Virus record (IMG/VR): IMGVR_UViG_3300034072_001227
Span: 1 to 61,642 of that record
Direction: 5' to 3' (one strand)
DNA: 61,642 nt
DNA from: a virus
Lineage: Duplodnaviria > Caudoviricetes
Shown: positions 1 through 61,642 of the stretch, one piece after another
How positions within the stretch are numbered: position 1 is the first letter of the stretch
Layout: each line of letters begins with the position of its first letter
Notes under the pieces: generated by a model
Seen by the model: only the letters and a program-made list of their open reading frames with translations
Database searches by the model: none
Told to the model about the DNA's origin: nothing
Made by a program: the position numbers and the translations under genes

Positions 1-127
1 CCCCATGGCGCGGCGCGCGTTGCGAGCGGCGGCCAGTTCCTTTTTGAACCATTTCACATATTTGGCCGCATAGGTTTTCAGGCGCTTGGCCGCGCCATCA
101 TAGGCCGCCTTGGCTTCGCGATAGGGC
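1..127. repeat. 127-bp direct terminal repeat (copy 1); assembly circularisation overlap
   Basis: 1-127 is identical to 61516-61642; 127 is a common assembler k-mer length. Confidence 0.95.
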
Positions 128-30065: not shown

Positions 30066-30099
30066 TATAGGGTTCCTGTCACGGGGACATGACGCAGGG

Positions 30100-30137
30100 A
30101 GGGCCTTGGTAGGGGATTGCCAAGGCCCTTTTCTTTT
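30100..30137 (+). terminator. rho-independent terminator
   Basis: AGGGCCTTGG...CCAAGGCCCT-TTTCTTTT. Confidence 0.85.
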
Positions 30138-30248
30138 GCCCGGCGCTGGCGCATAGAGACCGCAGAGGCGGCGGCACAAAGCTCTCATTCACTTGTGGGT
30201 GGTCAGCGGTAGTGATGGAAACCGCCGCCTCGAATCGAAAGGCCTGAC

Positions 30249-30699: not shown

Positions 30700-30777
30700 G
30701 GGGATGTCGTCCAAACGGTATAAGGACGCCAGTTTCCAAAACTGGAAATCTAGGTTCGAGTCCTAGCAGCTCCGCCA
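30700..30777 (+). tRNA. trnW: tRNA-Trp(CCA)
   Basis: GTCC/GGAC D-stem, CCAGT-TTCCAAA-ACTGG, CTAGG-TTCGAGT-CCTAG, G73, encoded CCA; one acceptor-stem mismatch. Confidence 0.9.
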
Positions 30778-30781
30778 CCAT

Positions 30782-30855
30782 TCACCCTTCGTCTAATGGC
30801 AGGACATCCGGTTTTGGACCGGGCAATGCTGGTTCGACCCCAGCAGGGTGATCCA
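30782..30855 (+). tRNA. trnQ: tRNA-Gln(UUG)
   Basis: TCACCCT/AGGGTGA acceptor stem, TCCGG-TTTTGGA-CCGGG, GCTGG-TTCGACC-CCAGC, encoded CCA. Confidence 0.93.
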
Positions 30856-37349: not shown

Positions 37350-40300
37350 ATGATCCTTCCTCTGTTCAGTTCCGCGCTGATTGTCATTGACGCCTGGAGC
37401 AAGGGCTCCGGGTCACGCGCGCCGATCTATCTGGCCGACGGGCCATCGCCCAACACCTATGGCATCGCAGGGTATTCGTGGGAGCCTGCGGTCAGCGACC
37501 GGCCGGCGATCTCCATGGATATCGGCACGCCGCAGGTCGACGGGAAGATCCGCGCAGGCCGTGCGACGTTCTCGATCATCAAGGCCAACGTCCGGTCTGT
37601 CGACATCAATGCGCTCTACCTGCGCTCTGCACCGGTTCGGATCTACGCTTCCATGGCGGAAGATCTGGACCTGACCAAGCCGGAGTTCGATGGCCGCATT
37701 ACCAGCGTTCGGGAAAGTGAAGACGGCTTCACGCTGTTCATATCGGCGGAGGTGTGGACATCGGACCTCGAGAAGCCGCTGCTGAATAGCGACTTCTCCG
37801 GCCTTGGCGGGATCAATGGCGATATCTCGCTGCGCGGCACCCTGCGCCCGGCCGGCTTCGGCGCCAAGGAGAACATCCCGCCCGTCTGGTTCGACCTCAC
37901 CGACAACATTGGCCAGATCGACGGATACGGCAACACGCTGGCCATCACGCGGCTCATGGAGGGAGCGTCGGACATGGGCCCGAGGGTCGACGACTATCCC
38001 ACATATGCGGCGCTCAAGGCGGCGATCGTCGCCAAGGTGATCGGGCCGGGCCAGTGGGGGACGTGCGTTGCGCAGGGATTGGTCGGCCTCGGGTCCCCCC
38101 CGGCTGGCGTCATCACTGCCAATGCGACGTTCGGCTCCAACCGCATCGGCCAGATCTGCCGCCGCATCATCACGACCCATGCCGGCGTCGACGTCTCGCG
38201 CGTGGATGTCGCGGCGTTCGACGCGGTCGATGTCGCCCTCCCTTATGCTGTCAGCTACTGGACATCGTCGCAGCGCACGGTGCTCGACCTCTTCGAGAAG
38301 CTGGCCCTGTCGGCAATATCGACACCCTTGGTCACGCTCCAGAACCGGATTTCGATCTCGCGGGCTGTGACCGGCGCTCCGGTTGGGACGCTCGACTGCT
38401 CAGGCGCGCAGGAGCCGCGCGTCACGACTTCGCAGACCGCCGAACTGTCCGCGCCATATACCGCTATCAAGGCGCGATCTGCGCGCCCGGCGGCGGTCCT
38501 GTCGATCGATCAGGTTTTCTTCATCGACGATCTGATCGAGGTCGGCGTCTTCGAGGTCGACGCGACGTATTATGCGGGCAACATCGTCACGATGGCGAAT
38601 GGCTCGCGCTGGCTGTTCATCAGCGAGACGCCAAAGGCAGGCTCGGTCCCGTCCGACAGCAACACCGACTGGCAGCGCCTGGCCGACGCGATCACGGCCG
38701 GCAACATCACCTATGAAGACGGCACGCCGGTTGAAGCGTTGAAGCCTGCCGAGCCGGGTGCGACCGATGGCATGAACGACGAAGAGCGGGACGAATTCGA
38801 CCAGCTCGCCGCCGACACTGCCACCGCCCAGACCAATATCGCCGCTGCCCAGGCGCAGATCGCGGCGATCCAGTCGAGCGTCGCGGCCGACTTCTCCGCG
38901 GTCAATGCCGAGGTCGATGCGCTGCAAGGCGCAATGACCACCGCCCAGGGCAATATCGCATCGATCCAGTCCGCGCAGTCCGACCTGTCCCAGTCTGTGG
39001 CCGCTCTGGCAGCGGACATGAGCGCCGCCGAAGGGTCGATCAGCAACCTGCAAACGTCGGTGAATGCGAGCCTGTCGGCGCTCAACAGCGACGTGGATGC
39101 CCTGGAGACGCAGGCTGCCGGCATCGCCGCGAGCGTGACCGGCCTCAATACGCAGGTCGGGTCGATCAATACCAATGTCTCGGCCCTGACCACGCGGATC
39201 GCGGACGCTGAAGGCGATATCGACAGCCTGCAATCGACCGTGGCGAGCCAGGGCGCGGCGATCACCGCCAACGCGACCGCGATCACGAACGCGCAAGGAT
39301 CGCTGGCCGAATATAGCCTGCGCCTGTCCAGCAACCGCCGGAACCTGCTGCCCAATGGCGGGCCGGAGGCGCTGCTGCGCGGGTGGACCGGCTCGGCGAC
39401 CTGGACGGTCAACACCAACAACAGCGAGGGTGCCTATTTCCTCTGCACGCCCACCGCCAGCGGCACGTTCGTTCTGACCAGCGATGCGATCCCGATGGAG
39501 GCCAGCGTTGCCCTGACGCTGGGCTATGAGACCCGCAACACGGGCGCGACCTCCTATTGCGATATCCAGTGCTATGACGCGTCCGGCGCAAACCTGATGG
39601 ACGGCGGGCAGAACGCCGCCGCTTCGGGCACGGTGTGGGGCGACCGAGCAGGCCGCGCCTTCACCCTCACCACGCCCGCCAACACGGCGTCGGTGCGCGT
39701 GCGCCTGGTCTGTGTCGCAACCTCCGCTTCCGATCGCGCGCGCATCCGCCAGGTCAAGCTGGAGAAGGGCACGACCTGGTCGGCCTATTCCAATGACGCA
39801 TCGGTCGCGCAGGCCTTCACCGCGATCAGCTCGGCCGAGGCCAATGTCGCCAGCCTGCAAACGACCGTCGCAACCCAGGGCGCGTCGATTTCCAGTAATG
39901 CCACCGCCATCACCGCGCTGACCGGTCGCACTGCGACGCTGGAGACGACGGTGTCGAGCCAGGGCGCGACCATCGGCACGCTTCAGTCGGCCGTATCCAC
40001 CGCCAATGGCAATATCGCCAGCCTCACGACGCGGGTTAATGTCAGCCAGACGAACCTGCTGCCCAATGGCGGCCTCGAAAATGGCTTTTCTGGCGCCATC
40101 ACTAGCGGGTCTTTCAGCTGGAGCAATGCACCGGAATGGGGTCCGATCGCGACCACGTCTACCAACGGAACCCAGATATTCGAATTTGCCGACATCACCG
40201 CTGTGCAGGTTGGCGCGACCTATTGGATTTCCTGCGACCCGCTCGCGCTGGGCGCGTCATCCATCTACTGCGATCTTCTGTTCCTCGACGCCAGCGGCAA

Positions 40301-43300
40301 TGTGCTGCTCGATGGTGGCCAGAACAGTCAGGCAGGGCCTTTCAATTTTAGCGCCAATGACACGCGTCGATCGTTGATCGCGGTGCCGGCCGTGGCGCCC
40401 AGCGGTACCACCAAAATCCGCCCCCGCGTCGTGGCCAATGTCGTCAGCAATCAGGTCGCAGGCTTCCGCCGCGTAAAGGTGGAAACCGGCAATAGCTGGA
40501 CGCCGTTCTCCAGCGAAGCCAGCCTGTTCTCCAACTGGTCGGCGACCAACACCGCGACCGCCAGCGTCGCCAGCCTGACCACGACCGTCAGCACCCAGGG
40601 CGCGTCGATCAGCTCGGCCCAGACCGCCATCACTACGCTGCAAGGTTCGGTATCGAGCTTGCAGACGACGGTCAGCACGCAAGGCGCCTCAATCACCACG
40701 CTGCAAAGCACGACCTCGACCCATACAGGCCAGATCGCGCAGCACACGACCGACATCGCCACCGCCAACAGCAACATCAGCGCGAATGCCCAGGCCATCA
40801 CCACGGCCAATGGCAATATCGCGAGCCTGACGACGCGCGTGTCCTCGGCTGAGAGCAGCATTTCCAGCCAGGCGACGGCCATCACCGGCCTGACCGGGCG
40901 CACCGCCACGCTGGAAACGACGGTCAGCAGCCAGGGCGCGTCGATCACCTCGCTCCAGACCACGACCTCGACCACCAGCGCGAACCTCGCCACCCTGACC
41001 ACGCGGGTCAATGCAGCGTCCACGAACCTGCTCAAATATGGCGGCTTCGAAAGCGGCGCGACCGGCTGGGTCGTTGTCGGCGCCGCCAGCTGGGGCGCGG
41101 TCAACGGCTTTTGGGGTCCGTTCGTCAACACGGCCGGGCTTTCGAACGGCAATGCCGGCTTGCAGAGCGAGCAGTTTGACGCCTCGCCGGGTCAGGCCTG
41201 GACGGCTTCTGTCGACGCCGAGTTCCTGGCGACAGCCGGCCAGATGTATTTGCAGATGGCGTTCCTGGTCAGCGGCAGCTGGACCACGGTCGGCACGGTC
41301 TACAAGACACGTGGGGCGGGCTTCACCAGCACCTCCGACGGTCGCCTGCGCACCACCCAGACTGCGCCTGCCAATACGACCAAGGTCCGCATTCAGATGG
41401 GCGTCGTCAATGTGGCCGGCGTCACCAACTGCGGCTTCCGCCAGGCCAAGCTGGAAGTCGGGTCGGTCATGTCGCCCTACAGCAACGAGGCGAGCGTCTA
41501 TCAGACGATCCAGACGCTCACGACCGCAACGGGCAGCCTTGCAACGCTGTCAACCACCGTATCGACCCAGGGCAGCAGCATCACTAGCCTGCAATCCTCC
41601 TACACGTCGCTGAGCGGGTCGCTTGCCAGCCTGACGACGCGGGTCGGCACGGCGGAAAGCTCCATCACTTCGCTTCAGTCGGCGTCGACCACCCAGGCCG
41701 GGCAGATCAGCACGTTGCAATCGACGGTCGCGACCCAGGGTTCGTCGATCAGCTCGAACGCCACCGCAATAACTACGCTGCAGGGCAATGTCGCCAACCT
41801 GACCACGCGAGTGAATGCGGCCCAGACCAACCTGCTGGTCAATGGCGGGCTGGAGAATGGCTTTGCCGGCGCCATCAGCGACGGCGGCTTTACCTATGGC
41901 AACTGGGGCACCTGGGGACCGAACGCCTCCACATCGACCAATGGCCAGCATGTCTTCCAGTTCGGCGACATCACGCAGGTCCAGGTTGGCGCGACCTACT
42001 GGATTTCCTGCGATCCGCTTGCCTTGGGCGGGTCGGACATCTGTTGTGATCTGCTGTTCCTCGACGCGAGCGGCAATGTGCTGCTCGATGGGCCGCAAAA
42101 TACCCAAGCCGGCCCGTTCAACTATTCGACCGATGATACCCGCCGGGGCCTGATCGCCGTGTCTGCTGTCGCGCCCAGCGGCACGATGCGGATCCGCGCG
42201 CGGATCATCGGCAATGTTGTCTCGGGCGCCACCATCGGCTTCCGCCGGGTGAAAGTGGAGATGGGGACAAGCTGGACCGGCTTCTCGTCCGAAGCCTCGA
42301 TCGTCCAGAGCTTCACCGCTTATTCCGGTCTCGACAGCAGCCTTGCGACGCTATCTAGCACGGTGTCCACCCAGGGCGGCAGCATCACGTCGCTACAATC
42401 GAGCTTCACCAGCCTCAATGGCACGGTATCGAGCCTGTCCTCGACCGTCTCCACGCAAGGGACATCAATCAGCACGCTGCAAACGGCATCGTCCACCCAA
42501 TCCGGCCAGATCGCTACGCTTCAGACCCAGATCGTGCTGGGCGGCAACCTGTTGCAGAATACAGATTTCGCGGTCGATACATCGGGATGGTTCTTCAACC
42601 AGAGCGGCAGCAGCCACACCGGCGCCCGCGATCTTTTGGGCGACGCTTATCGCCTGCCCAATGAACACACGCTTGGCATTCGCCAGGGCGACACCAACAG
42701 CACGGCCTATGCCTTCTGGCAGTCGACCGCCGTCGCGGTGGAGCCGGGCAAATATTACGAAGCCAGCTGCCTGGGGGCCAACGTCAATGCCAACCTGACG
42801 ATCTATCTGCGCTTTCAGGACGCCAACGGCGGCACGGTCCAGGACTTCACCGCCGCCAAGACGAGTGACAGCCAGGGCGCGACATTGTCCGCCTTCCTGC
42901 CGCTGTTCCGGCGTGGTCTGGCGCCGGCCGGCGCCACCAAGGTCGTGGTCATCCTGCTCAAGAACAGCACCAAGGCGGGCAGCGAAAGCTATGGCTGGTT
43001 CACCCGGCCGCAGCTCGCCCAGGTGCCCGGCCTGACGGGTGGCCCGGTGGCCTATTCGCCGGGCAGCGCCAGCACGACGATCAGCACGCAGGCGACTGCG
43101 CTCAGCAATGCGACCAGCAGCCTTGCGAGCCTGACCACAACGGTCAACACCCAGGGCGCGACAATCTCCAGCCAGGCCACCGCGATCAGCACACTGGAGG
43201 GGCAGCAGTCGAGTCTGTCGTCGACGGTATCGGCGCAGGGCGCGGCGATCAGCTCTCTGCAGACCACGACCTCGACGCTGCAAGGCAATGTTGCCAGCCT

Positions 43301-44153
43301 GACGACGCGGGTCGCCGCGTCCAGCCCCAATCTCCTGCCCAATGGCGGGCTTGAGAATGGCTTCGCCAGCGGCGTGGGGTCGGCCGGCGGTTACAGTTTT
43401 GCCATCAGCGCTGATTGGGGGCCGATCGCTAGCACGACTGCAACCGGCACGCAGGTGTTTCAGTTCGCGCCGGTCGCAGCCAATGCCGGTCGGGTTTATA
43501 CGCTGGCCTGTGATTCCGTCTGCACCGGCTCGGGCAGCGCGGTTTATTGCGACATGCTGTTCCGCAACGCTGCCGGCGATATCCTGCTTGATAGCGCGCA
43601 GAACATACTTGCAACCGTCTCCGACTTCGACACCACCACCGGCCGGCGCGGGCAGATTGCCGTCACGGCTACCGCCCCAACGGGCACGACCAACATCGTT
43701 TGCCGCTTTGTAGGCGTGCCGCAAAATGGAGGCACGGTCGGCTTCCGGCAGATGAAGCTGGAGCGGGGCAGCACCTGGTCGCCCTACAGCGCCGAAGCAA
43801 GCATCACGCAGAGTTTCTCGACGCTCTCGACCCTGGGAACGCAATATGCCTCGCTCTCCAGCACCGTGGCGACCCAGGGCGTAAGCATCAGCACCCAGGC
43901 GACCGCGATCACGACAATCCAAGGCAATGTGGCGACGGTTCTCGGCCGCTGGGGCGTTGAAATTGACGTGAACGGCTACGTCAGCGGAGTGGCGATGAAC
44001 AATAACGGCCAGCGCTCTGACTTCGCGGTGCGTGCGGACAAGTTCTCGATCATCCCACCATCCAGCACAGGTGAACGCTTCGAATACAGCGGCAACAATA
44101 TCAGGATCTACCATCCCAACGGCAACATAGCCATTCGTCTGGGGGTAGCCTGA
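37350..44153 (+). CDS. large tail tip/fibre protein with six carbohydrate-binding-like modules and DUF1983-like C-terminus
   Basis: six NLL.N modules separated by S/T-rich coiled coils; C-terminal IDVNGYVSG...FAVRADKFSI. Confidence 0.85.
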   Translation: MILPLFSSALIVIDAWSKGSGSRAPIYLADGPSPNTYGIAGYSWEPAVSDRPAISMDIGTPQVDGKIRAGRATFSIIKANVRSVDINALYLRSAPVRIYASMAEDLDLTKPEFDGRITSVRESEDGFTLFISAEVWTSDLEKPLLNSDFSGLGGINGDISLRGTLRPAGFGAKENIPPVWFDLTDNIGQIDGYGNTLAITRLMEGASDMGPRVDDYPTYAALKAAIVAKVIGPGQWGTCVAQGLVGLGSPPAGVITANATFGSNRIGQICRRIITTHAGVDVSRVDVAAFDAVDVALPYAVSYWTSSQRTVLDLFEKLALSAISTPLVTLQNRISISRAVTGAPVGTLDCSGAQEPRVTTSQTAELSAPYTAIKARSARPAAVLSIDQVFFIDDLIEVGVFEVDATYYAGNIVTMANGSRWLFISETPKAGSVPSDSNTDWQRLADAITAGNITYEDGTPVEALKPAEPGATDGMNDEERDEFDQLAADTATAQTNIAAAQAQIAAIQSSVAADFSAVNAEVDALQGAMTTAQGNIASIQSAQSDLSQSVAALAADMSAAEGSISNLQTSVNASLSALNSDVDALETQAAGIAASVTGLNTQVGSINTNVSALTTRIADAEGDIDSLQSTVASQGAAITANATAITNAQGSLAEYSLRLSSNRRNLLPNGGPEALLRGWTGSATWTVNTNNSEGAYFLCTPTASGTFVLTSDAIPMEASVALTLGYETRNTGATSYCDIQCYDASGANLMDGGQNAAASGTVWGDRAGRAFTLTTPANTASVRVRLVCVATSASDRARIRQVKLEKGTTWSAYSNDASVAQAFTAISSAEANVASLQTTVATQGASISSNATAITALTGRTATLETTVSSQGATIGTLQSAVSTANGNIASLTTRVNVSQTNLLPNGGLENGFSGAITSGSFSWSNAPEWGPIATTSTNGTQIFEFADITAVQVGATYWISCDPLALGASSIYCDLLFLDASGNVLLDGGQNSQAGPFNFSANDTRRSLIAVPAVAPSGTTKIRPRVVANVVSNQVAGFRRVKVETGNSWTPFSSEASLFSNWSATNTATASVASLTTTVSTQGASISSAQTAITTLQGSVSSLQTTVSTQGASITTLQSTTSTHTGQIAQHTTDIATANSNISANAQAITTANGNIASLTTRVSSAESSISSQATAITGLTGRTATLETTVSSQGASITSLQTTTSTTSANLATLTTRVNAASTNLLKYGGFESGATGWVVVGAASWGAVNGFWGPFVNTAGLSNGNAGLQSEQFDASPGQAWTASVDAEFLATAGQMYLQMAFLVSGSWTTVGTVYKTRGAGFTSTSDGRLRTTQTAPANTTKVRIQMGVVNVAGVTNCGFRQAKLEVGSVMSPYSNEASVYQTIQTLTTATGSLATLSTTVSTQGSSITSLQSSYTSLSGSLASLTTRVGTAESSITSLQSASTTQAGQISTLQSTVATQGSSISSNATAITTLQGNVANLTTRVNAAQTNLLVNGGLENGFAGAISDGGFTYGNWGTWGPNASTSTNGQHVFQFGDITQVQVGATYWISCDPLALGGSDICCDLLFLDASGNVLLDGPQNTQAGPFNYSTDDTRRGLIAVSAVAPSGTMRIRARIIGNVVSGATIGFRRVKVEMGTSWTGFSSEASIVQSFTAYSGLDSSLATLSSTVSTQGGSITSLQSSFTSLNGTVSSLSSTVSTQGTSISTLQTASSTQSGQIATLQTQIVLGGNLLQNTDFAVDTSGWFFNQSGSSHTGARDLLGDAYRLPNEHTLGIRQGDTNSTAYAFWQSTAVAVEPGKYYEASCLGANVNANLTIYLRFQDANGGTVQDFTAAKTSDSQGATLSAFLPLFRRGLAPAGATKVVVILLKNSTKAGSESYGWFTRPQLAQVPGLTGGPVAYSPGSASTTISTQATALSNATSSLASLTTTVNTQGATISSQATAISTLEGQQSSLSSTVSAQGAAISSLQTTTSTLQGNVASLTTRVAASSPNLLPNGGLENGFASGVGSAGGYSFAISADWGPIASTTATGTQVFQFAPVAANAGRVYTLACDSVCTGSGSAVYCDMLFRNAAGDILLDSAQNILATVSDFDTTTGRRGQIAVTATAPTGTTNIVCRFVGVPQNGGTVGFRQMKLERGSTWSPYSAEASITQSFSTLSTLGTQYASLSSTVATQGVSISTQATAITTIQGNVATVLGRWGVEIDVNGYVSGVAMNNNGQRSDFAVRADKFSIIPPSSTGERFEYSGNNIRIYHPNGNIAIRLGVA

Positions 44154-55876: not shown

Positions 55877-56230
55877 TCAGGCGGACGGGTCTAGCGCCAC
55901 GCGGCGGCACCAGTCGCAGCCGCAATTGGGATCGTCATGATCGAGCGGCACGGCTGGAGCGGGCGCTGTCGGCGTAACCTTGGAGGCGTTGCCCACTACC
56001 AGCCCGACGATATCAGCCAGCAGCCCGGCGGCATCGTCCGCCTCATCCGCAAAGGTGAACGGAATGACCATCTCCGCGTAGCGCACGGTGTGCCCACTCA
56101 GCAGCTTGTGCCGGATGGTGCAGGAGACATGGAACCCGGCCGGGAGGATCTCGATCTTGGTGCCGCGACCGGCCTGGCGCTCGGCATTGAGCAGCGCGCC
56201 GATGGCCTTGAGGGTGGATGCGTCGATCAT
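55877..56230 (-). CDS. hypothetical protein
   Basis: GGGAG SD; ATGA coupling. Confidence 0.65.
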   Translation of the reverse strand: MIDASTLKAIGALLNAERQAGRGTKIEILPAGFHVSCTIRHKLLSGHTVRYAEMVIPFTFADEADDAAGLLADIVGLVVGNASKVTPTAPAPAVPLDHDDPNCGCDWCRRVALDPSA

Positions 56231-56847
56231 GCGCCCGCGCTCCCGTCCTGGTGGGTGATGATCCACGACAGGGCGAGGTGCCCCGCGTGCGCCCGACAGA
56301 TGGGCTTGCCGTCCACAAGGAAGTCGGAGCGCTTGCCGCACAGGTTGGTCGGGAGGCCCCTGCGCTCGCGTTCGTGAAGGGCATAGCGGCTGTGCGGCGT
56401 CGCCCGATCCTTGGCAACCCGGATCGGCTGGACGCAGGGCGCGCGGTTGCTCCCGATCTCGCGCACGGGCTTGATGGTGGGAATGGTCATGGGTCTGGCC
56501 TCCATATCGGCAAGGATGGTGCGAGCGCGGGCAATCAGCCCATCAACCGCCGTGTCGTTGTCGAGATCGCGGCCATCGGCTTCCGCCTGCGTCGTCATGC
56601 GGCTGATCTGCTCGACAAAGGCCAGCAGGGTTTCGGCCGCGTCCTTCGCGCAGTCGGCGCGGGTATATTCGCGCACGCTGGCCGCGTCGCCCAAGTCATT
56701 AAGGGTGGTGTCTTCGTCGAAATCGACGCCCCACGCCTCGCAAAGGCGCTCGACCGCGAAGGCCTCCGCATCCTCCAGCGTGAGGGCGTCAACCGATTCC
56801 GCGAATAGTCCGCCATCGCAGGAGCCTTCGATAAGATAGCGTTTCAT
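56227..56847 (-). CDS. hypothetical protein
   Basis: ATGGAAGGA leader. Confidence 0.7.
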   Translation of the reverse strand: MKRYLIEGSCDGGLFAESVDALTLEDAEAFAVERLCEAWGVDFDEDTTLNDLGDAASVREYTRADCAKDAAETLLAFVEQISRMTTQAEADGRDLDNDTAVDGLIARARTILADMEARPMTIPTIKPVREIGSNRAPCVQPIRVAKDRATPHSRYALHERERRGLPTNLCGKRSDFLVDGKPICRAHAGHLALSWIITHQDGSAGA

Positions 56848-56879
56848 GTGTCGTCCTTCCATTTCTCTAAAGGGTGGTG

Positions 56880-57947
56880 TCAGGCCTGGGCCTTGATCGG
56901 CCAGCGCGCGTCGCCCCGGGCGGGCTTGCAAAAGCCGTCGTCAACCGCAGCGCCACCATAGGGGCGCATCTGGTCGAGCATATCGAGCAACGGCCGCATC
57001 TGGCTGACCGTGCGTTCTGCCGCGTCGGCGCGGTCACGCTGCGCCATGGCCTCCTGATCGGCTTCGCGCGCGCCGGCCAGCGCCAGCACCTTATCGCGGC
57101 GCTCGCGGTGGAGGGCGCGCACGGCGCGACGGCGGCCAGCATGCGCCCGCGATAGGGCATCCTCCAGCCGGTCAATCCGCGCCTGCATGGCCGCAATCGC
57201 TTCGCTATCGGCTGGAGCATCGGCCGCGATCGCCTCCACGACATCGGCCGCCGCAACGGCTGGCGCTTCGCCGACAAGGTCAAGGAATGACGCAGGGGCG
57301 ATTTCCGGCCCGCTCAGCGCCTTCACGACATCCGCGCCACATTGTGCCGCTTCCGGCTGGATCGACGCCACACGGGCGGGATTTGCGGCCAGAACGGCGC
57401 AAAGGTCGCGCACCATCGTTTCCAGTGCGCCGATGCGCGCAAGGGCTTCGCTATTCATGGGGGCAGATTCCTCCGAACGGGGGGCGGTCAATGGGGCCAC
57501 TGCAGGGCCGGAATTTGTTGCGGCCGTATCGGGCGGAGAACATTTTGCCGCCTTGTGGCAGGCCTTGCGCTTGGCCTTGGGCGCGGTTTCCACCGGGCCG
57601 CATGCCTGCCGCACCTTTGCCGCGTTCCACTGGAGCGCGCCGTTAGGCTTCGCGTTCATGCGGATGGAGCGCGCCACGTTCCCGGCGTCGTCCATTTCCT
57701 CGATATCGATGATATCCGCCCGCGCCATGTAACCGGGCATCGCAAGAATGACTTTCGCGTCCTTCCCTACGCCTGCCACGATGCCGCGCGGCTCATAAGA
57801 GACACCGGACGGGATAGCGAAGCCGCGCGACGCGGCCAGCCATTGCAAATAGGCCTTTGTCGCGTCGCCCTGGTCCTTCGCCGTAAATGGCTCCGGCTTA
57901 TTCAGGTCCGCCACGCTTGGCCGATACCATGCGCTATTCTGCAACAT
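56880..57947 (-). CDS. hypothetical protein with C-terminal coiled coil
   Basis: GATGGAAGGA leader. Confidence 0.75.
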   Translation of the reverse strand: MLQNSAWYRPSVADLNKPEPFTAKDQGDATKAYLQWLAASRGFAIPSGVSYEPRGIVAGVGKDAKVILAMPGYMARADIIDIEEMDDAGNVARSIRMNAKPNGALQWNAAKVRQACGPVETAPKAKRKACHKAAKCSPPDTAATNSGPAVAPLTAPRSEESAPMNSEALARIGALETMVRDLCAVLAANPARVASIQPEAAQCGADVVKALSGPEIAPASFLDLVGEAPAVAAADVVEAIAADAPADSEAIAAMQARIDRLEDALSRAHAGRRRAVRALHRERRDKVLALAGAREADQEAMAQRDRADAAERTVSQMRPLLDMLDQMRPYGGAAVDDGFCKPARGDARWPIKAQA

Positions 57948-58041
57948 GTCTCTTCCTTCCATCAGGGCTTGAGCGCCCGCCTAGCGCCCGGGATCGCCCG
58001 GCCGCTAAGGGGACGGCGCGGCATGGGGCCGCGCTCGCCTG

Positions 58042-58293
58042 TCAGTATTCCCGCGCCTCCACGCCCAAGCGGGCCGCGCGCGCCATCGCTTCCGCTTCCG
58101 CTGCTTCGCGCGTCGGAAAATCCTGTTCGTCGCTCAGGTCAAACGGCGCGTTTTCTTCGCCGTCGTGGCGCGTATAGACGCACCAGCCATGCGCGGCGGC
58201 GGGATCGTCGCAATAAGTCTGGTCGCCTTCATCGTCATAGGCCCACGGGTGGAAATAGACGGCGGACGGCTGGAGGGTGGCATTATTGGTCAT
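58042..58293 (-). CDS. hypothetical acidic protein
   Basis: CCAGATGGAAGGA leader. Confidence 0.75.
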   Translation of the reverse strand: MTNNATLQPSAVYFHPWAYDDEGDQTYCDDPAAAHGWCVYTRHDGEENAPFDLSDEQDFPTREAAEAEAMARAARLGVEAREY

Positions 58294-58382
58294 GGGTGGT
58301 CCTTCCATCTGGCACTATCGCCGTCGTGCGCCTGCGCTAGGGCAGGGGCAGGAAGGCGCGCGGGACTGGCCCGCGTCGCCGG

Positions 58383-58583
58383 TTATTCCTCCAGATTGTC
58401 CGCCTCCACCCGGATGCCCCGATATTCGGCATCATGCCGCGCATAGGAAGGCAGGCAGGACGGCCTGACATACCAACATGCATTCGCGCTATGCCAATCG
58501 ACTGGAGCGCCCGCCGGGACGTCCACAGTCAGGTTCAAGGCGCCCGGGCCGAAGTCATGGGTAAAGGCGGATTTAACGCGCAT
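58383..58583 (-). CDS. hypothetical protein
   Basis: GGGAGG SD before MRVKSAF. Confidence 0.65.
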   Translation of the reverse strand: MRVKSAFTHDFGPGALNLTVDVPAGAPVDWHSANACWYVRPSCLPSYARHDAEYRGIRVEADNLEE

Positions 58584-58956
58584 TGCGGCAACCTCCCGGC
58601 AATTCCTGATATGCCCCATAAGCGCCCTCGCCTTTCCCGCCCGGGATGGCTGGCCAGCCGTAGGATATGGGCGAAGGGCGAGCGGACCAATCGGACACGC
58701 GCCAGATGGAGCCATCGGGGGCGATGATATCCCGGCCGCCTCCGGCCTTGCTGGCCGCCTGATAGGTCAATTCCCGCGCTTTCACCTGATCGGCGTTTTC
58801 CACCTGCAGGACGCCGCCGACATCATAGCAGCGCTTGCCCATATCGCCGGGCAGTATGCGGCCGATAGCGCCGACGATGCGCCCGGCCTCTTCGCGGTCA
58901 TAGCTATCAAGTGGGGCCGTGTAACGGCTGGCGATAGTGAAGAGATATTTACGCAT
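58573..58956 (-). CDS. hypothetical protein
   Basis: GGAGG SD; overlaps neighbours. Confidence 0.7.
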   Translation of the reverse strand: MRKYLFTIASRYTAPLDSYDREEAGRIVGAIGRILPGDMGKRCYDVGGVLQVENADQVKARELTYQAASKAGGGRDIIAPDGSIWRVSDWSARPSPISYGWPAIPGGKGEGAYGAYQELPGGCRNAR

Positions 58957-59140
58957 TGGCCGCGCCCTCCAGTCGAACGCGCCGGGTCAGGACGCGATAG
59001 TCTCCGCCCTCATTCTCGCGATACTCGCGCAGGCGTGCGCGGATATCGGCGCGCGTGTCTTCCGTGGTCAGGCATTCCCAGCCCTGCCCATAGTTGCCTT
59101 GCAATTCGTATTCGTCGCGGGTTTTGCGCTGATAGGCCAT
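58949..59140 (-). CDS. small hypothetical phage protein
   Basis: LQGNYGQGWE...LREYRENE. Confidence 0.7.
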   Translation of the reverse strand: MAYQRKTRDEYELQGNYGQGWECLTTEDTRADIRARLREYRENEGGDYRVLTRRVRLEGAANA

Positions 59141-59143
59141 GGC

Positions 59144-59728
59144 TTAATAATCCTGCGCGGCAAGCTGGAGGGCGGACAGGGCTTCTTGCCCGATCCCGGC
59201 GCGTAATTGCAGGGCGTCGGCCATACATTGCTTGTAAATGGCTTCATCCTTGCGGCTATCGGAATTAAAGCCCAATTCATCGGCCCAATCCTCAAATCGG
59301 GCGTAATTCAGGACATCCGCGTCAATGGCCAGCGAATAGACGACATCCGCCGCCGATGGGGCAGGGATGGCCTTGCCGTTCTGGAACATTGCCAGCCCGC
59401 CCGGCGCGAAAACGGTAATTCTGCCGGTTTCGGTTTCGCGCTCAATCGCCGATGCGCGCAACATGCTATAGGCCGATCCGGCTTGCTTGACGCTGGCCTT
59501 ATAGGCTGGCGCAAGGCCGAATCCCTGCGTGTAGTCGGTGGTGATGATATCCCGATAGCGGTCATCACCTTCACCGTTCTTGTAGCGCTGGACCAGCGTT
59601 ATCCGCCAATTGAGCGAGCGATGATTTTCCGCCGCATTGCGCGACTTGGAGAACGGCACAAATTCAGCCCGGATGGACAGACCAAGGCGTTCAATCGCCT
59701 GCTCTAGGGTTTCCGTTGCCTCGCCCAT
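59144..59728 (-). CDS. hypothetical protein
   Basis: GGAGG SD before MGEATE; FEDWADELGFNSDSRK. Confidence 0.75.
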   Translation of the reverse strand: MGEATETLEQAIERLGLSIRAEFVPFSKSRNAAENHRSLNWRITLVQRYKNGEGDDRYRDIITTDYTQGFGLAPAYKASVKQAGSAYSMLRASAIERETETGRITVFAPGGLAMFQNGKAIPAPSAADVVYSLAIDADVLNYARFEDWADELGFNSDSRKDEAIYKQCMADALQLRAGIGQEALSALQLAAQDY

Positions 59729-59729
59729 C

Positions 59730-59876
59730 TCAGCGGCCCTCCGGTGCGTGGAACCCGTCCAGCGAAGCCGGGAACGCGATGGCAAGGAACAGGCGCGCCG
59801 ACTTGTCGCGGCGCTGCGCCTTGCGGGTCATGCGGCGCGCCTTAGCGCCCGGCAAACGGCTATGATCGATGTGCAT
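59730..59876 (-). CDS. small basic protein (48 aa, MHIDHSRLPGAKARR...)
   Basis: CCAGATGGAAGGA leader; stop abuts next ATG; directly downstream of the hammerhead. Confidence 0.6.
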   Translation of the reverse strand: MHIDHSRLPGAKARRMTRKAQRRDKSARLFLAIAFPASLDGFHAPEGR

Positions 59877-59894
59877 TGCGGTTTCCTTCCATCT

Positions 59895-59957
59895 GGCCTG
59901 CCTCATCAGTAGGGGGCGGCCGCTTCCCCTAGACGCGCCATGGCGGCGCGTTTCGGC
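59895..59957 (-). ncRNA. type II hammerhead self-cleaving ribozyme
   Basis: minus strand GCC-GAAA-CGCGCC-gccat-GGCGCG-UC^UAGGGG-aagcggccgc-CCCCUA-CUGAUGA-GGC; complete core and three stems. Confidence 0.88.
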
Positions 59958-60722
59958 TTAGATATTGTCGGCGGCGAATTGCTCAATCGGGATGCTTTTG
60001 CCATCGGCCCAATAGTGGAAATTATCCGCGATGGCCGCGCGCAGGGATAGCGCCTCTTGCATAGCGCGCAGATGCTCCTTTACCGCCTTATGCAGCGCCG
60101 CGCAGATAGTCGGCGCGGCCATCGTGCCAGCGCGCCGGGCTGCGCCGATATCCTTAATCAGGGCGCGCGCGCTGGCCTTTTCTTCGCTGGCGGTGTCTTC
60201 TGCATCATGCCAGCCATTGGCCAGATTCCACGCTTGCTGATATTCGTATTCCGTCTCTAGGGATTTATATATCCACCGCGCAAAGTCGCGCATGGCGTCG
60301 ATTATCTCCCCTTCTGCCTCCGATGGGACATAGCGCCCTTGAACCCATGCGCCGCCAGCAACCTCTTTTCCGTCGGCGCGGTCGATATCCACGCGCATCG
60401 TCATTTCATGGCAATAGTGGCCGATGCTGCGCGAAATGGACGCCTCTAGTTGATAGAAATTGCGGGATTGGACGCGCTGCAGCCTATCCGCGATGGCGTG
60501 CAATTCGGTCGCTTTCGGCCATTCCTTGCGGATAGCGGCGGCCGCGCCCTTGGCATAGGCGTAACTTCCCGTGAATGACGCGCCATCGCCTTGAGACCAG
60601 AAGCCGGAAAAGCTGATATCGTCGATATCAATGCCGATAGTGCGCGCCGCGTCCTTCGCGTTGCCATAGACGCCTGCATGCCAGCCATAGTGCGGCGTGT
60701 AGTGTTCATGATTGAATGCCAT
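59958..60722 (-). CDS. hypothetical phage protein
   Basis: FSGFWSQGDGASF...WIYKSLETEYEY; CCAGATGGAAGGA leader. Confidence 0.8.
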   Translation of the reverse strand: MAFNHEHYTPHYGWHAGVYGNAKDAARTIGIDIDDISFSGFWSQGDGASFTGSYAYAKGAAAAIRKEWPKATELHAIADRLQRVQSRNFYQLEASISRSIGHYCHEMTMRVDIDRADGKEVAGGAWVQGRYVPSEAEGEIIDAMRDFARWIYKSLETEYEYQQAWNLANGWHDAEDTASEEKASARALIKDIGAARRAGTMAAPTICAALHKAVKEHLRAMQEALSLRAAIADNFHYWADGKSIPIEQFAADNI

Positions 60723-60816
60723 TGCCTTATCCTTCCATCTGGGCAGATATCGCCCGCTAGGCGACTGGAGATGCCTCCAGCGGCCAAGGGGGCGGCGGGG
60801 CAAGCCCGCGCGCCAG

Positions 60817-61002
60817 TTATATGCCGTAGGCCCGCATTTCGTCCCTATGGGCGCAAATCAGCATGCCGGTTATCAGGACCATAAAGCCCGCGACCGTTGC
60901 CCAATATTCGGGCGTGTCGTGAATGGCCGCGCCGAAAGCGTCGCCGATCATGAAAGCCAGCACGCTAAGGGCGATGGCGCGGATTAGGTCTAGGGGTAGC
61001 AT
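60817..61002 (-). CDS. small two-TM protein
   Basis: GGAGG SD; two hydrophobic segments. Confidence 0.65.
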   Translation of the reverse strand: MLPLDLIRAIALSVLAFMIGDAFGAAIHDTPEYWATVAGFMVLITGMLICAHRDEMRAYGI

Positions 61003-61274
61003 TAGCGCGCCTCCACGTTGCGATTGCGGTAAACGACATAGCCGCCGGTAACGGTCATGATCGGGGGGAACGTGGCGGCAATCGCGCATTTCTTGCGCTC
61101 GATATATTCGCGCATGGCCTGCCCGGCATCTGCCCGGCAACGCACACCCATAGCGTGCCCGGCAATGTTGATCCCGACGATTAGCGCCATATCGTGCAAA
61201 TCGACGCGCTGGCGAAAATAGCGCTGGTCGCGCTTTGCGCAGACCGTCCGAAAGTCATCATGTAGCTTGCTCAT
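61002..61274 (-). CDS. hypothetical protein
   Basis: TAATG coupling. Confidence 0.65.
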   Translation of the reverse strand: MSKLHDDFRTVCAKRDQRYFRQRVDLHDMALIVGINIAGHAMGVRCRADAGQAMREYIERKKCAIAATFPPIMTVTGGYVVYRNRNVEAR

Positions 61275-61277
61275 GGC

Positions 61278-61505
61278 TTAGGCCGCCTTTGCGCTAGTGT
61301 TATTATCGAGCCAATCGGCGGCCATTTCGGCACGTTCCGCGTTGCGGATAATCCGCGCAGCGCGCTTGCGTTCATCGGCCGCATGGGCGCGCAGCGACTT
61401 TTGCGCGGAACGGCCGGGCGACAAGAGAAAGTCAATCTGGCCAATGTTATCCTTTACGCATGCATAGGCATGCGCGCCGATCATAAAGCGGACATTGATA
61501 ATCAT
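61278..61505 (-). CDS. hypothetical protein
   Basis: GGGAG SD; follows the junction-spanning gene. Confidence 0.7.
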   Translation of the reverse strand: MIINVRFMIGAHAYACVKDNIGQIDFLLSPGRSAQKSLRAHAADERKRAARIIRNAERAEMAADWLDNNTSAKAA

Positions 61506-61515
61506 GTCACAGACT

Positions 61516-61642
61516 CCCCATGGCGCGGCGCGCGTTGCGAGCGGCGGCCAGTTCCTTTTTGAACCATTTCACATATTTGGCCGCATAGGTTTTCAGGCGC
61601 TTGGCCGCGCCATCATAGGCCGCCTTGGCTTCGCGATAGGGC
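61516..61642. repeat. 127-bp direct terminal repeat (copy 2)
   Basis: identical to 1-127. Confidence 0.95.

What the first reader, a model, noticed from the sequence alone, without database searches (positions are those of the whole stretch)
59895..59957. Canonical hammerhead ribozyme between two genes of the small-gene (putative early) operon
Seen: on the coding (minus) strand, directly after the TAA of 59958-60722, the sequence reads GCC GAAA CGCGCC gccat GGCGCG UC / UAGGGG aagcggccgc CCCCUA CUGAUGA GGC aGGCC. All hammerhead core residues (CUGAUGA, GAAA, GUC) are present. Stems I and III are perfect 6-bp helices, stem II is open (type II topology, 3 bp), and the GGCC tail could pair with GGCC in loop I. 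Known: hammerheads cleave after NUH, which here falls between 59932 and 59931, leaving a 5'-OH end about 55 nt before the next start codon. Inference: the phage self-processes its polycistronic mRNA to set the stability or translation of the downstream genes.
Basis: partly seen in the sequence, partly recalled or inferred. Interest (0 to 1): 0.85.

Follow-up and report, generated by a model that had tools for sequence, protein, structure and literature searches.

The report
Type II hammerhead ribozyme between phage genes
The flagged sequence is a genuine, complete self-cutting hammerhead RNA lying between two genes of an uncultured phage, but this kind of element in this kind of place has been known since 2011, so it is an ordinary new example.

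Summary
Observation confirmed. Window 59958..59892 (minus strand) matches Rfam Hammerhead_II (RF02276) over the whole model at 54.5 bits (cut-off 37, E 1.7e-8). My own model, built from 13 other phage hammerheads, scores it 62.4 bits. [quoted passage not shown] The GGCC/GGCC contact between loop I and the 3' tail lies in register with the family's covarying pseudoknot. It is the only ribozyme in this complete 61.6-kb phage genome.

It starts at the last base of the upstream stop codon. The next gene's ribosome-binding site and start codon lie 23 nt after stem II. In my sample of 169 phage type II hammerheads this stop-ribozyme-start layout is typical: 71% and 76%, against 6-11% in controls.

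Most likely it cuts the polycistronic mRNA between 59932 and 59931, leaving each product capped by a hairpin. Cutting is inferred, not shown.

Type II hammerheads with this pseudoknot, lying between prophage genes and cutting polycistronic RNA in vitro, were described by Perreault et al. 2011 (PMC3088659). This scan has also reported such elements many times on other DNA. It is a new member of a known kind and of low interest.

The parts
59892..59958 (-). Complete type II hammerhead ribozyme (Rfam RF02276 match, model 1-66)
   Evidence: 54.5 bits, cut-off 37, E 1.7e-8; 62.4 bits with own model R1; the same hit in a search of the whole genome.
59955..59957 (-). Stem II 5' strand (GCC). It pairs with GGC at 59900-59902, and the helix is open (3 bp), which defines type II.
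59951..59954 (-). Core GAAA (G12 A13 A14 A15.1)
59933..59951 (-). Stem III hairpin, 7 pairs including A15.1-U16.1, 5-nt loop. It becomes the 3' end of the upstream cleavage product.
   Evidence: hairpin -12.4 kcal/mol; in the 5' product only the last nucleotide is predicted unpaired.
59931..59932 (-). Cleavage site: after C17 (59932) and before U1.1 (59931)
   Evidence: Position of H17 in the Rfam and R1 alignments. H17 is C in 146 of 150 aligned phage hammerheads. Cutting itself was not tested.
59910..59931 (-). Stem I hairpin, 6 pairs, 10-nt loop holding GGCC (59918-59921). It becomes the 5' end of the downstream product.
   Evidence: hairpin -9.3 kcal/mol.
59903..59909 (-). Core CUGAUGA (C3-A9)
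59895..59898 (-). 3' tail GGCC, which pairs with loop I GGCC (59918-59921) as a 4-bp pseudoknot
   Evidence: In alignment A5 these bases fall in columns 84, 86-88 and 126-129. Across 145 distinct phage hammerheads those columns pair in 73.2% of cells, against 59.9% when shuffled (0 of 500 shuffles reach it) and 25-50% when slid.
59958..60722 (-). Upstream gene (254 aa, phrog_5162, function unknown). The last base of its TAA stop is the first base of the ribozyme model.
   Evidence: 490 relatives at E <= 0.001; model pLDDT 94.7.
59884..59890 (-). Ribosome-binding site GGAAGGA of the next gene, 7 nt before its ATG
   Evidence: Mean unpaired probability is 0.57 uncut and 0.59 cut.
59730..59876 (-). 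Downstream small gene (48 aa, basic). Its ATG is 23 nt after stem II and 55 nt after the cut.
   Evidence: Third-position GC is 0.83-0.90 in this frame. One relative of the same length is 75% identical.
59144..59728 (-). Next gene (194 aa, phrog_4273, function unknown). It would be part of the same downstream cleavage product.
   Evidence: A contig of run X5 is about 93% alike over 59189-59713 and also carries hammerhead sequence upstream.

Best explanation
This is an active, cis-acting type II hammerhead ribozyme transcribed as part of the minus-strand message. That message carries the 254-aa gene, the 48-aa gene and the 194-aa gene. Once the 3' strand of stem II and the GGCC tail are made, the RNA folds and cuts itself after C59932, with stems I and II docked by the pseudoknot. 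The upstream product keeps its stop codon and ends in the stem III hairpin with a 2',3'-cyclic phosphate. The downstream product starts with a 5'-hydroxyl at the base of the stem I hairpin, 41 nt before an open ribosome-binding site. The likely result is that the two halves of the operon get independent, hairpin-protected lifetimes and their expression is uncoupled. Shown here: motif identity, intact core, family-typical pseudoknot, sense orientation and family-typical placement. Inferred: cutting in vivo and its effect on RNA stability.
For: Identity. Rfam RF02276 scores it 54.5 bits against a cut-off of 37, and the independent model R1 scores it 62.4 bits, rank 25 of 169 matches. The chance expectation is about 0.007 per window. 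All core positions are canonical.

Family structure. Over the 20 pairs of the structure, 94.0% of cells are paired, against 64.8% when shuffled, and 19 of 20 pairs change on both sides. The pseudoknot, which is not part of the model, pairs in 73.2% of cells against 59.9% shuffled. The window's 4 pairs are in that register.

Placement. The gap from the upstream stop is 0 nt and the gap to the next ATG is 23 nt. Of 169 phage type II hammerheads, 120 have a stop within -3..+5 nt; random positions give 47 of 845 and the antisense strand 15 of 169. Of the same 169, 129 have a ribosome-binding site plus start 10-40 nt downstream; random positions give 94 of 845 and antisense 9 of 169. The fractions are the same with one ribozyme per locus.

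Co-transcription. No promoter-like or terminator-like site lies on the minus strand in 56000-61642.

Relatives. A 1287-nt contig of a run from another study is about 93% alike over the 194-aa gene and continues upstream into hammerhead sequence with GUC and a GGCC loop. Other contigs carry an 86%-alike 3' half joined to a wholly different but still 7-bp stem III and followed by their own ribosome-binding site and AUG.

Products. The 5' product is predicted to end in the stem III hairpin.

Precedent. Fourteen of 18 consensus hammerheads cut in vitro, and prophage arrays cut about 2-kb polycistronic RNAs (PMC3088659). Three type II hammerheads of Desulfovibrio vulgaris cut in vivo (PMC8782182).
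Against: There is no experimental or RNA-read evidence for this phage. Plain thermodynamic folding prefers another fold by 3.1 kcal/mol and the region is not unusually stable (z -0.15).

The element is not conserved with its neighbour gene. Only 3 of 240 loci that encode a relative of the 254-aa protein have a type II hammerhead within 2.5-3 kb. The closest available relative, a Sphingomonas prophage gene 57% identical, has a plain 77-nt spacer instead. The phage therefore does not need it for this gene.

Predicted ribosome-binding-site accessibility does not change on cutting. Four of 18 consensus hammerheads tested by Perreault et al. did not cut.
Confidence: 0.75

Rival explanations
1. Selfish or neutral passenger. 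The hammerhead cuts, but it is a small mobile module that spreads between phages at gene junctions and gives this phage no benefit.
For: Its distribution is patchy: 3 of 240 loci with the neighbour gene have one, and the closest relative lacks it. Where it occurs near that gene its position differs: directly after the gene here, two genes after it in L082, about 1.1 kb after it in L286, and directly before it in L084. No other flanking gene is shared. Near-copies of its 3' half lie in unrelated flanks in the same metagenomes. Perreault et al. note that ribozymes are common in selfish elements.
Against: A neutral passenger would not be expected to keep such exact placement across the family, with the stop at -3..+5 nt, the start 10-40 nt downstream, and always the sense strand. 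It is kept upstream of the 194-aa gene in a relative from another study even though the 48-aa gene region between them has been replaced. No repeats or second ribozyme mark a mobile unit.
Confidence: 0.12
2. Conditional switch. Cutting is gated by translation of the upstream gene, because a ribosome stopping at the TAA would cover stem II and half of stem III. Alternatively it is gated by a competing fold. Either way the ribozyme would report translation status rather than cut constitutively.
For: The stop codon overlaps or abuts stem II here and in 71% of 169 phage type II hammerheads. A more stable competing fold pairs loop I with the tail and stem II strand. Perreault et al. raise regulated cleavage for phage hammerheads. 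The reach of a terminating ribosome is recalled knowledge, not a call.
Against: There is no ligand-binding or extra domain, and the motif is minimal and canonical. The tight stop-to-ribozyme spacing may simply reflect compact phage genomes and the need to keep the stop codon on the 5' product.
Confidence: 0.08
3. Inactive look-alike: a chance or decayed motif that does not cut.
For: Four of 18 consensus hammerheads tested by Perreault et al. did not cut. Minimum-free-energy folding does not favour the fold.
Against: E is 1.7e-8, no core deviation is present, stems are perfect and the pseudoknot is in the family register. Two of 300 shuffled windows gave any loose-descriptor hit and none gave a hit with stems as long as observed. 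Related copies show compensatory stem changes.
Confidence: 0.04

Closest known systems
Type II hammerhead ribozymes of bacteria and prophages (Rfam RF02276; Perreault et al. 2011, PMC3088659)
   Same: Same core. [quoted passage not shown] The pseudoknot of 4 or more pairs joins loop I to the nucleotides just after stem II. The element is intergenic, in sense orientation, between small phage genes of unknown function.
   Different: Nothing structural. Here there is a single copy in a free phage genome, whereas the paper stresses groups of two or three that flank a gene.
Triple hammerhead arrangement around ardA in an Agrobacterium tumefaciens prophage, and similar arrays in Clostridium scindens and Azorhizobium caulinodans (PMC3088659)
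   Same: Ribozymes punctuate a polycistronic phage message. Cutting was shown in vitro and, for A. tumefaciens, in E. coli.
   Different: Here only one junction of the operon carries a ribozyme. The flanking 254-aa protein matched no Pfam family, ArdA's included.
Three type II hammerheads of Desulfovibrio vulgaris detected by cyPhyRNA-seq (PMC8782182)
   Same: Type II ribozymes next to hypothetical and phage-like genes, with both cleavage ends captured in vivo.
   Different: Those were verified experimentally. This one is a prediction from an uncultured phage.
Variant hammerhead 'HHphage' of haloviruses HF1/HF2, 13 nt before the start codon of an early helicase gene (discussed in PMC3088659)
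   Same: A phage ribozyme just upstream of a start codon in an early polycistronic unit. The mapped 5' end of the transcript lies within three nucleotides of the cleavage site.
   Different: That one has a variant core that needs high salt and infects archaea. This one has a canonical core.
Bacterial twister ribozymes in the same gene neighbourhoods (review PMC6765202)
   Same: Self-cleaving RNAs proposed to process polycistronic messages into parts with different stability or translation. Their purpose is still undefined.
   Different: An unrelated fold. None is present in this window.

Membership tests
Hammerhead ribozyme type II (Rfam RF02276) | Covariance-model score at or above the curated cut-off (37 bits) over the full model | tested here: met
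   54.5 bits, model 1-66 of 66, E 1.7e-8; the same hit in a search of the whole genome.
Hammerhead ribozyme type II (Rfam RF02276) | Invariant core: C3 U4 G5 A6 N7 G8 A9, G12 A13 A14, A15.1-U16.1, and H17 that is not G (numbering recalled from the hammerhead literature) | tested here: met
   CUGAUGA at 59909-59903, GAAA at 59954-59951, U at 59933 and C at 59932. Of 150 aligned phage copies, 134 have CUGAUGA and 146 have C17.
Hammerhead ribozyme type II (Rfam RF02276) | Type II topology: stems I and III closed by loops, stem II open, with a G10.1-C11.1 closing pair | tested here: met
   Stem I has 6 bp, stem III has 7 bp, and stem II has 3 bp (GCC/GGC) with no loop.
Hammerhead ribozyme type II (Rfam RF02276) | Pseudoknot of 4 or more pairs between loop I and the tail just 3' of stem II (Perreault et al. 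2011) | tested here: met
   GGCC 59921-59918 pairs with GGCC 59898-59895, in the same alignment columns as the family's covarying pseudoknot. Whether it forms in the RNA was not tested.
Hammerhead ribozyme type II (Rfam RF02276) | Site-specific self-cleavage that gives 2',3'-cyclic phosphate and 5'-OH ends | not testable with these tools
   This needs an in vitro or in vivo assay. No RNA run is listed for this DNA.
Hammerhead ribozyme type II (Rfam RF02276) | Structure kept by compensatory change in related sequences | tested here: met
   Family-wide, 19 of 20 pairs change on both sides. For close copies, contigs of runs X3 and X4 pair an 86%-alike 3' half with a different 7-bp stem III, and a syntenic relative in X5 keeps GUC and the GGCC loop. 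Only 30 letters of each unaligned end could be read, so the close-relative evidence is partial.
Gene-flanking hammerhead arrays of prophages (Perreault et al. 2011) | Two or more hammerheads within a few kb that flank a gene or a short block of genes | tested here: not met
   There is one copy in the whole genome. The next best R1 match with filters off scores 11.6 bits, E 0.67, and there is no other ribozyme family at E <= 1.

The most novel reading that the evidence does not exclude
In phage type II hammerheads the upstream stop codon is part of the ribozyme's 5' edge. It lies within -3..+5 nt of stem II in 71% of 169 copies, and at 0 nt here. A ribosome finishing the upstream gene would therefore melt stems II and III. 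On this reading the ribozyme would cut only RNA that is not being translated through that stop, or would cut only in the brief gap before the first ribosome arrives. It would then be a translation-sensing switch that decides whether the downstream genes stay linked to the upstream message, rather than a constitutive cutter. I found no statement of this in print. 'Stop codon', 'ribosome binding' and 'Shine-Dalgarno' each occur 0 times in the main text of PMC3088659. One full-text search listed 11 of the 12 papers it found, none relevant by title. Supplements were closed.
Probability: 0.12. Interest if true: 0.55.

Novelty: new member of a known kind. Interest (0 to 1): 0.2.

Why it matters
On its own it adds one more predicted hammerhead to thousands. 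It is useful as a clean, single-copy test case: canonical core, perfect stems, a 4-bp pseudoknot, and one defined junction in a complete phage genome. That suits the still-open question of what self-cleaving ribozymes do for phages (the reviews PMC6765202 and PMC6155905 both call this unresolved).

The side survey gives a concrete, testable regularity. The usual unit is stop codon, then ribozyme, then ribosome-binding site, then start codon. Type II topology also leaves both products capped by a hairpin.

There is a practical point for annotation. The AUG inside CUGAUGA opens an in-frame extension of the downstream gene, both here (the ORF that starts at 59906) and in L082. Gene callers can therefore place a start codon inside the ribozyme.

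Tried and rejected
Close relatives of the phage were hard to reach.
- blastn of 58900-60800 against deposited phages found nothing.
- Single-protein locus searches with the 254-aa protein and with the large terminase found nothing.
I therefore could not fetch the contigs that encode the 63%-identical relative P0002 or the 48-aa relative P0122, and could not test covariation at the orthologous site in full.

No RNA holder is listed for this DNA, so expression and cutting could not be read from data.

Minimum-free-energy folding does not return the hammerhead. I do not count this against the finding, because the pseudoknot and core contacts are not modelled.

A MAFFT alignment of five hammerheads was scrambled in the loops. 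I replaced it with a gap-free set of 13 copies of equal geometry and a covariance model.

My hand-written descriptor missed the L286 copy that Rfam found at exactly the cut-off, 37.0 bits. I therefore rescanned all 240 neighbour-gene loci with model R1. The descriptor's one loose hit, in L313, is 132 nt long with 4-bp stems and was not confirmed by R1.

Rejected: the idea that cutting unmasks the ribosome-binding site. Predicted accessibility is 0.57 before and 0.59 after.

Rejected: further, weaker or half hammerheads elsewhere in the genome, a lead from earlier scan reports. None was found.

Rejected: a special kinship between the window's ribozyme and the L286 copy. Other phage copies are closer, at up to 73% identity.

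The function of the 254-aa neighbour could not be settled. It has no Pfam family and only PHROG families of unknown function. Foldseek found no PDB match at E <= 0.001. VIA-align returned only generic long-helix matches, Z <= 8.8. Atlas structural neighbours at TM about 0.6 carry the automatic name 'antitoxin of toxin-antitoxin stability system', which is a lead only.

Supplementary files of the papers were closed. Figures S1-S8 and Dataset S1 of PMC3088659 may already show the stop/start placement or close copies of this ribozyme.

Full report
WHAT IS THERE

Read on the minus strand, the stretch 59958 to 59892 is a complete type II hammerhead.
- The last A of the TAA stop of ORF 59958-60722 is the first position of the Rfam model.
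- Stem II 5' strand GCC is at 59957-59955 and GAAA at 59954-59951.
- Stem III is a hairpin of 7 pairs, counting A15.1-U16.1, at 59951-59933.
- C17 is at 59932.
- Stem I is a hairpin of 6 pairs with a 10-nt loop, at 59931-59910.
- CUGAUGA is at 59909-59903 and stem II 3' strand GGC at 59902-59900.
- After one A comes the tail GGCC (59898-59895), which is complementary to GGCC in loop I (59921-59918).

Rfam's Hammerhead_II model (RF02276) matches it end to end at 54.5 bits (cut-off 37), E 1.7e-8. A permissive scan of the window (E up to 1) found no other ribozyme.

I built a second, independent model (R1) from 13 other phage hammerheads of equal geometry. It scores the window at 62.4 bits. With all filters off its next best match in the genome scores 11.6 bits, E 0.67. 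The phage therefore has exactly one hammerhead.

CHANCE

A hand-written type II descriptor (core motifs plus three helices) hit the window once. In 300 dinucleotide-preserving shuffles it hit twice with loose stems and never with stems as long as observed. Across 165 sequences (164 loci plus the window; 804 kb) it found only copies that Rfam also finds.

One point runs the other way. Minimum-free-energy folding prefers another fold (-27.7 against -24.6 kcal/mol for the hammerhead secondary structure), and the stretch is no more stable than shuffles (z -0.15). That calculation ignores the pseudoknot and the core.

GENOME CONTEXT

The window is a whole IMG/VR virus record rated complete. Its 'terminal repeat' is an exact 127-nt overlap, so the map is circular and the start point is arbitrary.

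The plus-strand arm carries DnaB, the large terminase, portal and major head genes. The minus-strand arm carries RecT, an HNH nuclease and a DNA ligase. The hammerhead lies in the minus arm, in sense orientation, among small genes of unknown function:
- the 254-aa gene upstream (phrog_5162);
- the 48-aa gene downstream;
- the 194-aa gene after that (phrog_4273).

Third-position GC supports all three reading frames, at 0.83-0.90 for the 48-aa gene. That small gene has one relative of the same length at 75% identity. No promoter-like or terminator-like site lies on the minus strand between 56000 and 61642. That is weak support for co-transcription. 'Early' timing is plausible but not shown.

RELATIVES OF THE NEIGHBOUR GENE

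The 254-aa protein has 490 relatives at E <= 0.001. I collected 240 loci that encode one: 80 from IMG/VR, 80 from metagenomes and 80 from bacterial genomes. At least three contigs occur in two of these sets. I scanned all 240 with R1.

Three loci have a type II hammerhead within 2.5-3 kb: L032, L062 and L286. Rfam searches of 79 whole virus records gave the same two IMG/VR cases, plus one sub-threshold hit far from the gene. The position differs in each case:
- directly after the gene in this window;
- two genes after it in L082;
- about 1.1 kb after it in L286;
- directly before it in L084.

No other flanking gene is shared. The closest available relative is 57% identical and lies in a Sphingomonas genome. 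It has a plain 77-nt spacer where the window has the ribozyme. The ribozyme is therefore not tied to this gene.

The L286 copy has the core variant U3-A8 in place of C3-G8. Perreault et al. describe this as a natural compensatory pair.

CLOSE COPIES IN RAW ASSEMBLIES

Four DNA runs were laid on 58900-60900.
- A 1287-nt contig from another study (X5) is about 93% alike over the 194-aa gene (34 differences in 525).
 - It replaces 145 nt of the 48-aa gene region with 133 other letters.
 - It matches again over 59859-59916 (start codon, ribosome-binding site, tail, stem II strand, CUGAUGA).
 - It then runs on into sequence that, read in the RNA sense, shows GUC, a stem I strand with one extra base, and a loop with GGCC.
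 - So a relative keeps a hammerhead at the same junction.
- Contigs in X3 and X4 match only the ribozyme or its 3' half (5 differences in 37).
 - They have unrelated flanks.
 - They have a wholly different stem III that still forms 7 pairs.
 - Downstream they have their own ribosome-binding site and AUG.

Only 30 letters of each unaligned end are shown, so this evidence is partial.

FAMILY-WIDE CHECKS

My descriptor found 169 type II hammerheads in 99 of them.

| Feature | Hammerheads | Random positions | Antisense strand |
|---|---|---|---|
| Same-strand ORF of 40 or more codons ends within -3..+5 nt of stem II | 120 of 169 (71%) | 47 of 845 (6%) | 15 of 169 (9%) |
| Ribosome-binding site plus start codon 10-40 nt after stem II | 129 of 169 (76%) | 94 of 845 (11%) | 9 of 169 (5%) |

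Taking one ribozyme per locus gives 72% and 77%. The window's values, 0 and 23 nt, sit at the peak of both distributions.

R1 found 169 matches in 100 sources. The best 150 were aligned, giving 145 distinct rows.
- All 20 pairs of the structure: 94.0% of cells paired, against 64.8% shuffled, and 19 of 20 pairs change on both sides. Fifteen of the 20 lean on an alignment fitted to the model.
- Pseudoknot (not in the model): 73.2% paired, against 59.9% shuffled (0 of 500 shuffles reach it) and 25-50% when slid.

The window's four pseudoknot pairs fall in exactly those columns.

HOW IT MOST LIKELY WORKS

The ribozyme folds as soon as the tail is transcribed and cuts after C59932. Hammerhead cleavage gives a 2',3'-cyclic phosphate and a 5'-hydroxyl (stated in PMC8782182).

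Because the topology is type II, the upstream product keeps its stop codon. It ends in the stem III hairpin (-12.4 kcal/mol) with a single unpaired 3' base. The downstream product begins at the base of the stem I hairpin (-9.3 kcal/mol), with its first six bases mostly paired in the predicted ensemble.

From general knowledge of bacterial RNA decay (recalled, not from a call), a 3' hairpin hinders 3' exonucleases. A paired, unphosphorylated 5' end escapes 5'-end-dependent attack by RNase E or RNase J. Both halves should therefore be protected and their lifetimes uncoupled. This step is inference. Predicted ribosome-binding-site accessibility is unchanged by cutting (0.57 against 0.59), so I do not favour translational unmasking.

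COMPARISON WITH WHAT IS KNOWN

I read passages, sections 8 and 11 (part 1) and the outline of Perreault et al. 2011 (PMC3088659). The paper describes:
- type II hammerheads as common in bacteria;
- the loop I to 3'-tail pseudoknot of four or more pairs, and its importance for speed;
- ribozymes that flank genes in prophages, where the genes themselves vary;
- cutting of about 2-kb polycistronic RNAs in vitro, and in E. coli;
- hammerheads in phage intergenic regions.

The reviews PMC6765202 and PMC6155905 (passages) state the polycistronic-processing idea and the persistent link with phages, and say the purpose is still open. PMC8782182 (passages) showed three type II hammerheads cutting in vivo.

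This scan has also reported such elements on other DNA many times. A word search returned 530 notes, several of them followed-up reports of type II hammerheads before phage ribosome-binding sites.

VERDICT

The element is a new member of a known kind, present here as a single copy rather than an array. The only mildly new material is the measured stop-ribozyme-start layout and the hairpin-capped products. The layout is not mentioned in the main text of PMC3088659, and one literature search turned up nothing relevant. Supplements were closed.

Noticed in passing
window 59906 (minus strand); also L082:1514: The AUG inside the catalytic CUGAUGA is in frame with the downstream gene. ORF finders therefore list a longer ORF (59730-59906, 58 aa) that starts inside the ribozyme. 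The same happens in L082. The likely true start is the ATG at 59876, which has a ribosome-binding site.
   Followed up: partly
window 59958-60722 (minus strand): The 254-aa neighbour belongs to a large family of unknown function (490 relatives; invariant SQGDGA.F motif; phrog_5162). The family is found in phages and in alphaproteobacterial genomes. Its AlphaFold model is confident (pLDDT 94.7) but has no clear match among solved structures. Atlas neighbours carry an automatic 'antitoxin' name.
   Followed up: partly
L286:2061-2134 and L228:7981-8045: Two type II hammerheads carry the core variant UUGAUAA (U3-A8 in place of C3-G8), a compensatory pair already reported as natural by Perreault et al. 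2011.
   Followed up: partly
loci L165-L284 (IMG/VR), for example L231, L201, L197, L233, L236: Several phage contigs carry arrays of 7 to 12 or more type II hammerheads within a few kb, whereas 71 of the 99 positive loci had one. Across the sample the usual unit is stop codon, ribozyme, ribosome-binding site, start codon. The stop codon is often TAG, with its G as the first base of stem II (24 cases).
   Followed up: partly
window 1-127 and 61516-61642: The 'direct terminal repeat' is an exact 127-nt overlap, which is the length expected of an assembler's k-mer overlap. The genome map is therefore circular and the minus-strand gene block runs on across the ends.
   Followed up: partly
window 30700-30855 (plus strand): Two adjacent tRNA genes, Trp (CCA) and Gln (TTG). 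A weak ctRNA_p42d match at 30097-30139 scores 25.6 bits, far below its cut-off of 50, and is probably chance.
   Followed up: no
window 39099-43914 (plus strand): Many diverged internal direct repeats (41-300 nt, 60-85% alike) lie inside the 2267-aa ORF 37350-44153, presumably a tail fibre.
   Followed up: no
L285 (Sphingomonas sp. genome contig), L286 (Sphingomonadaceae MAG): The two closest full-length relatives of the 254-aa protein that could be fetched lie in Sphingomonadaceae, and most other genome hits are Alphaproteobacteria. This hints at the host group of this 64% GC phage.
   Followed up: no
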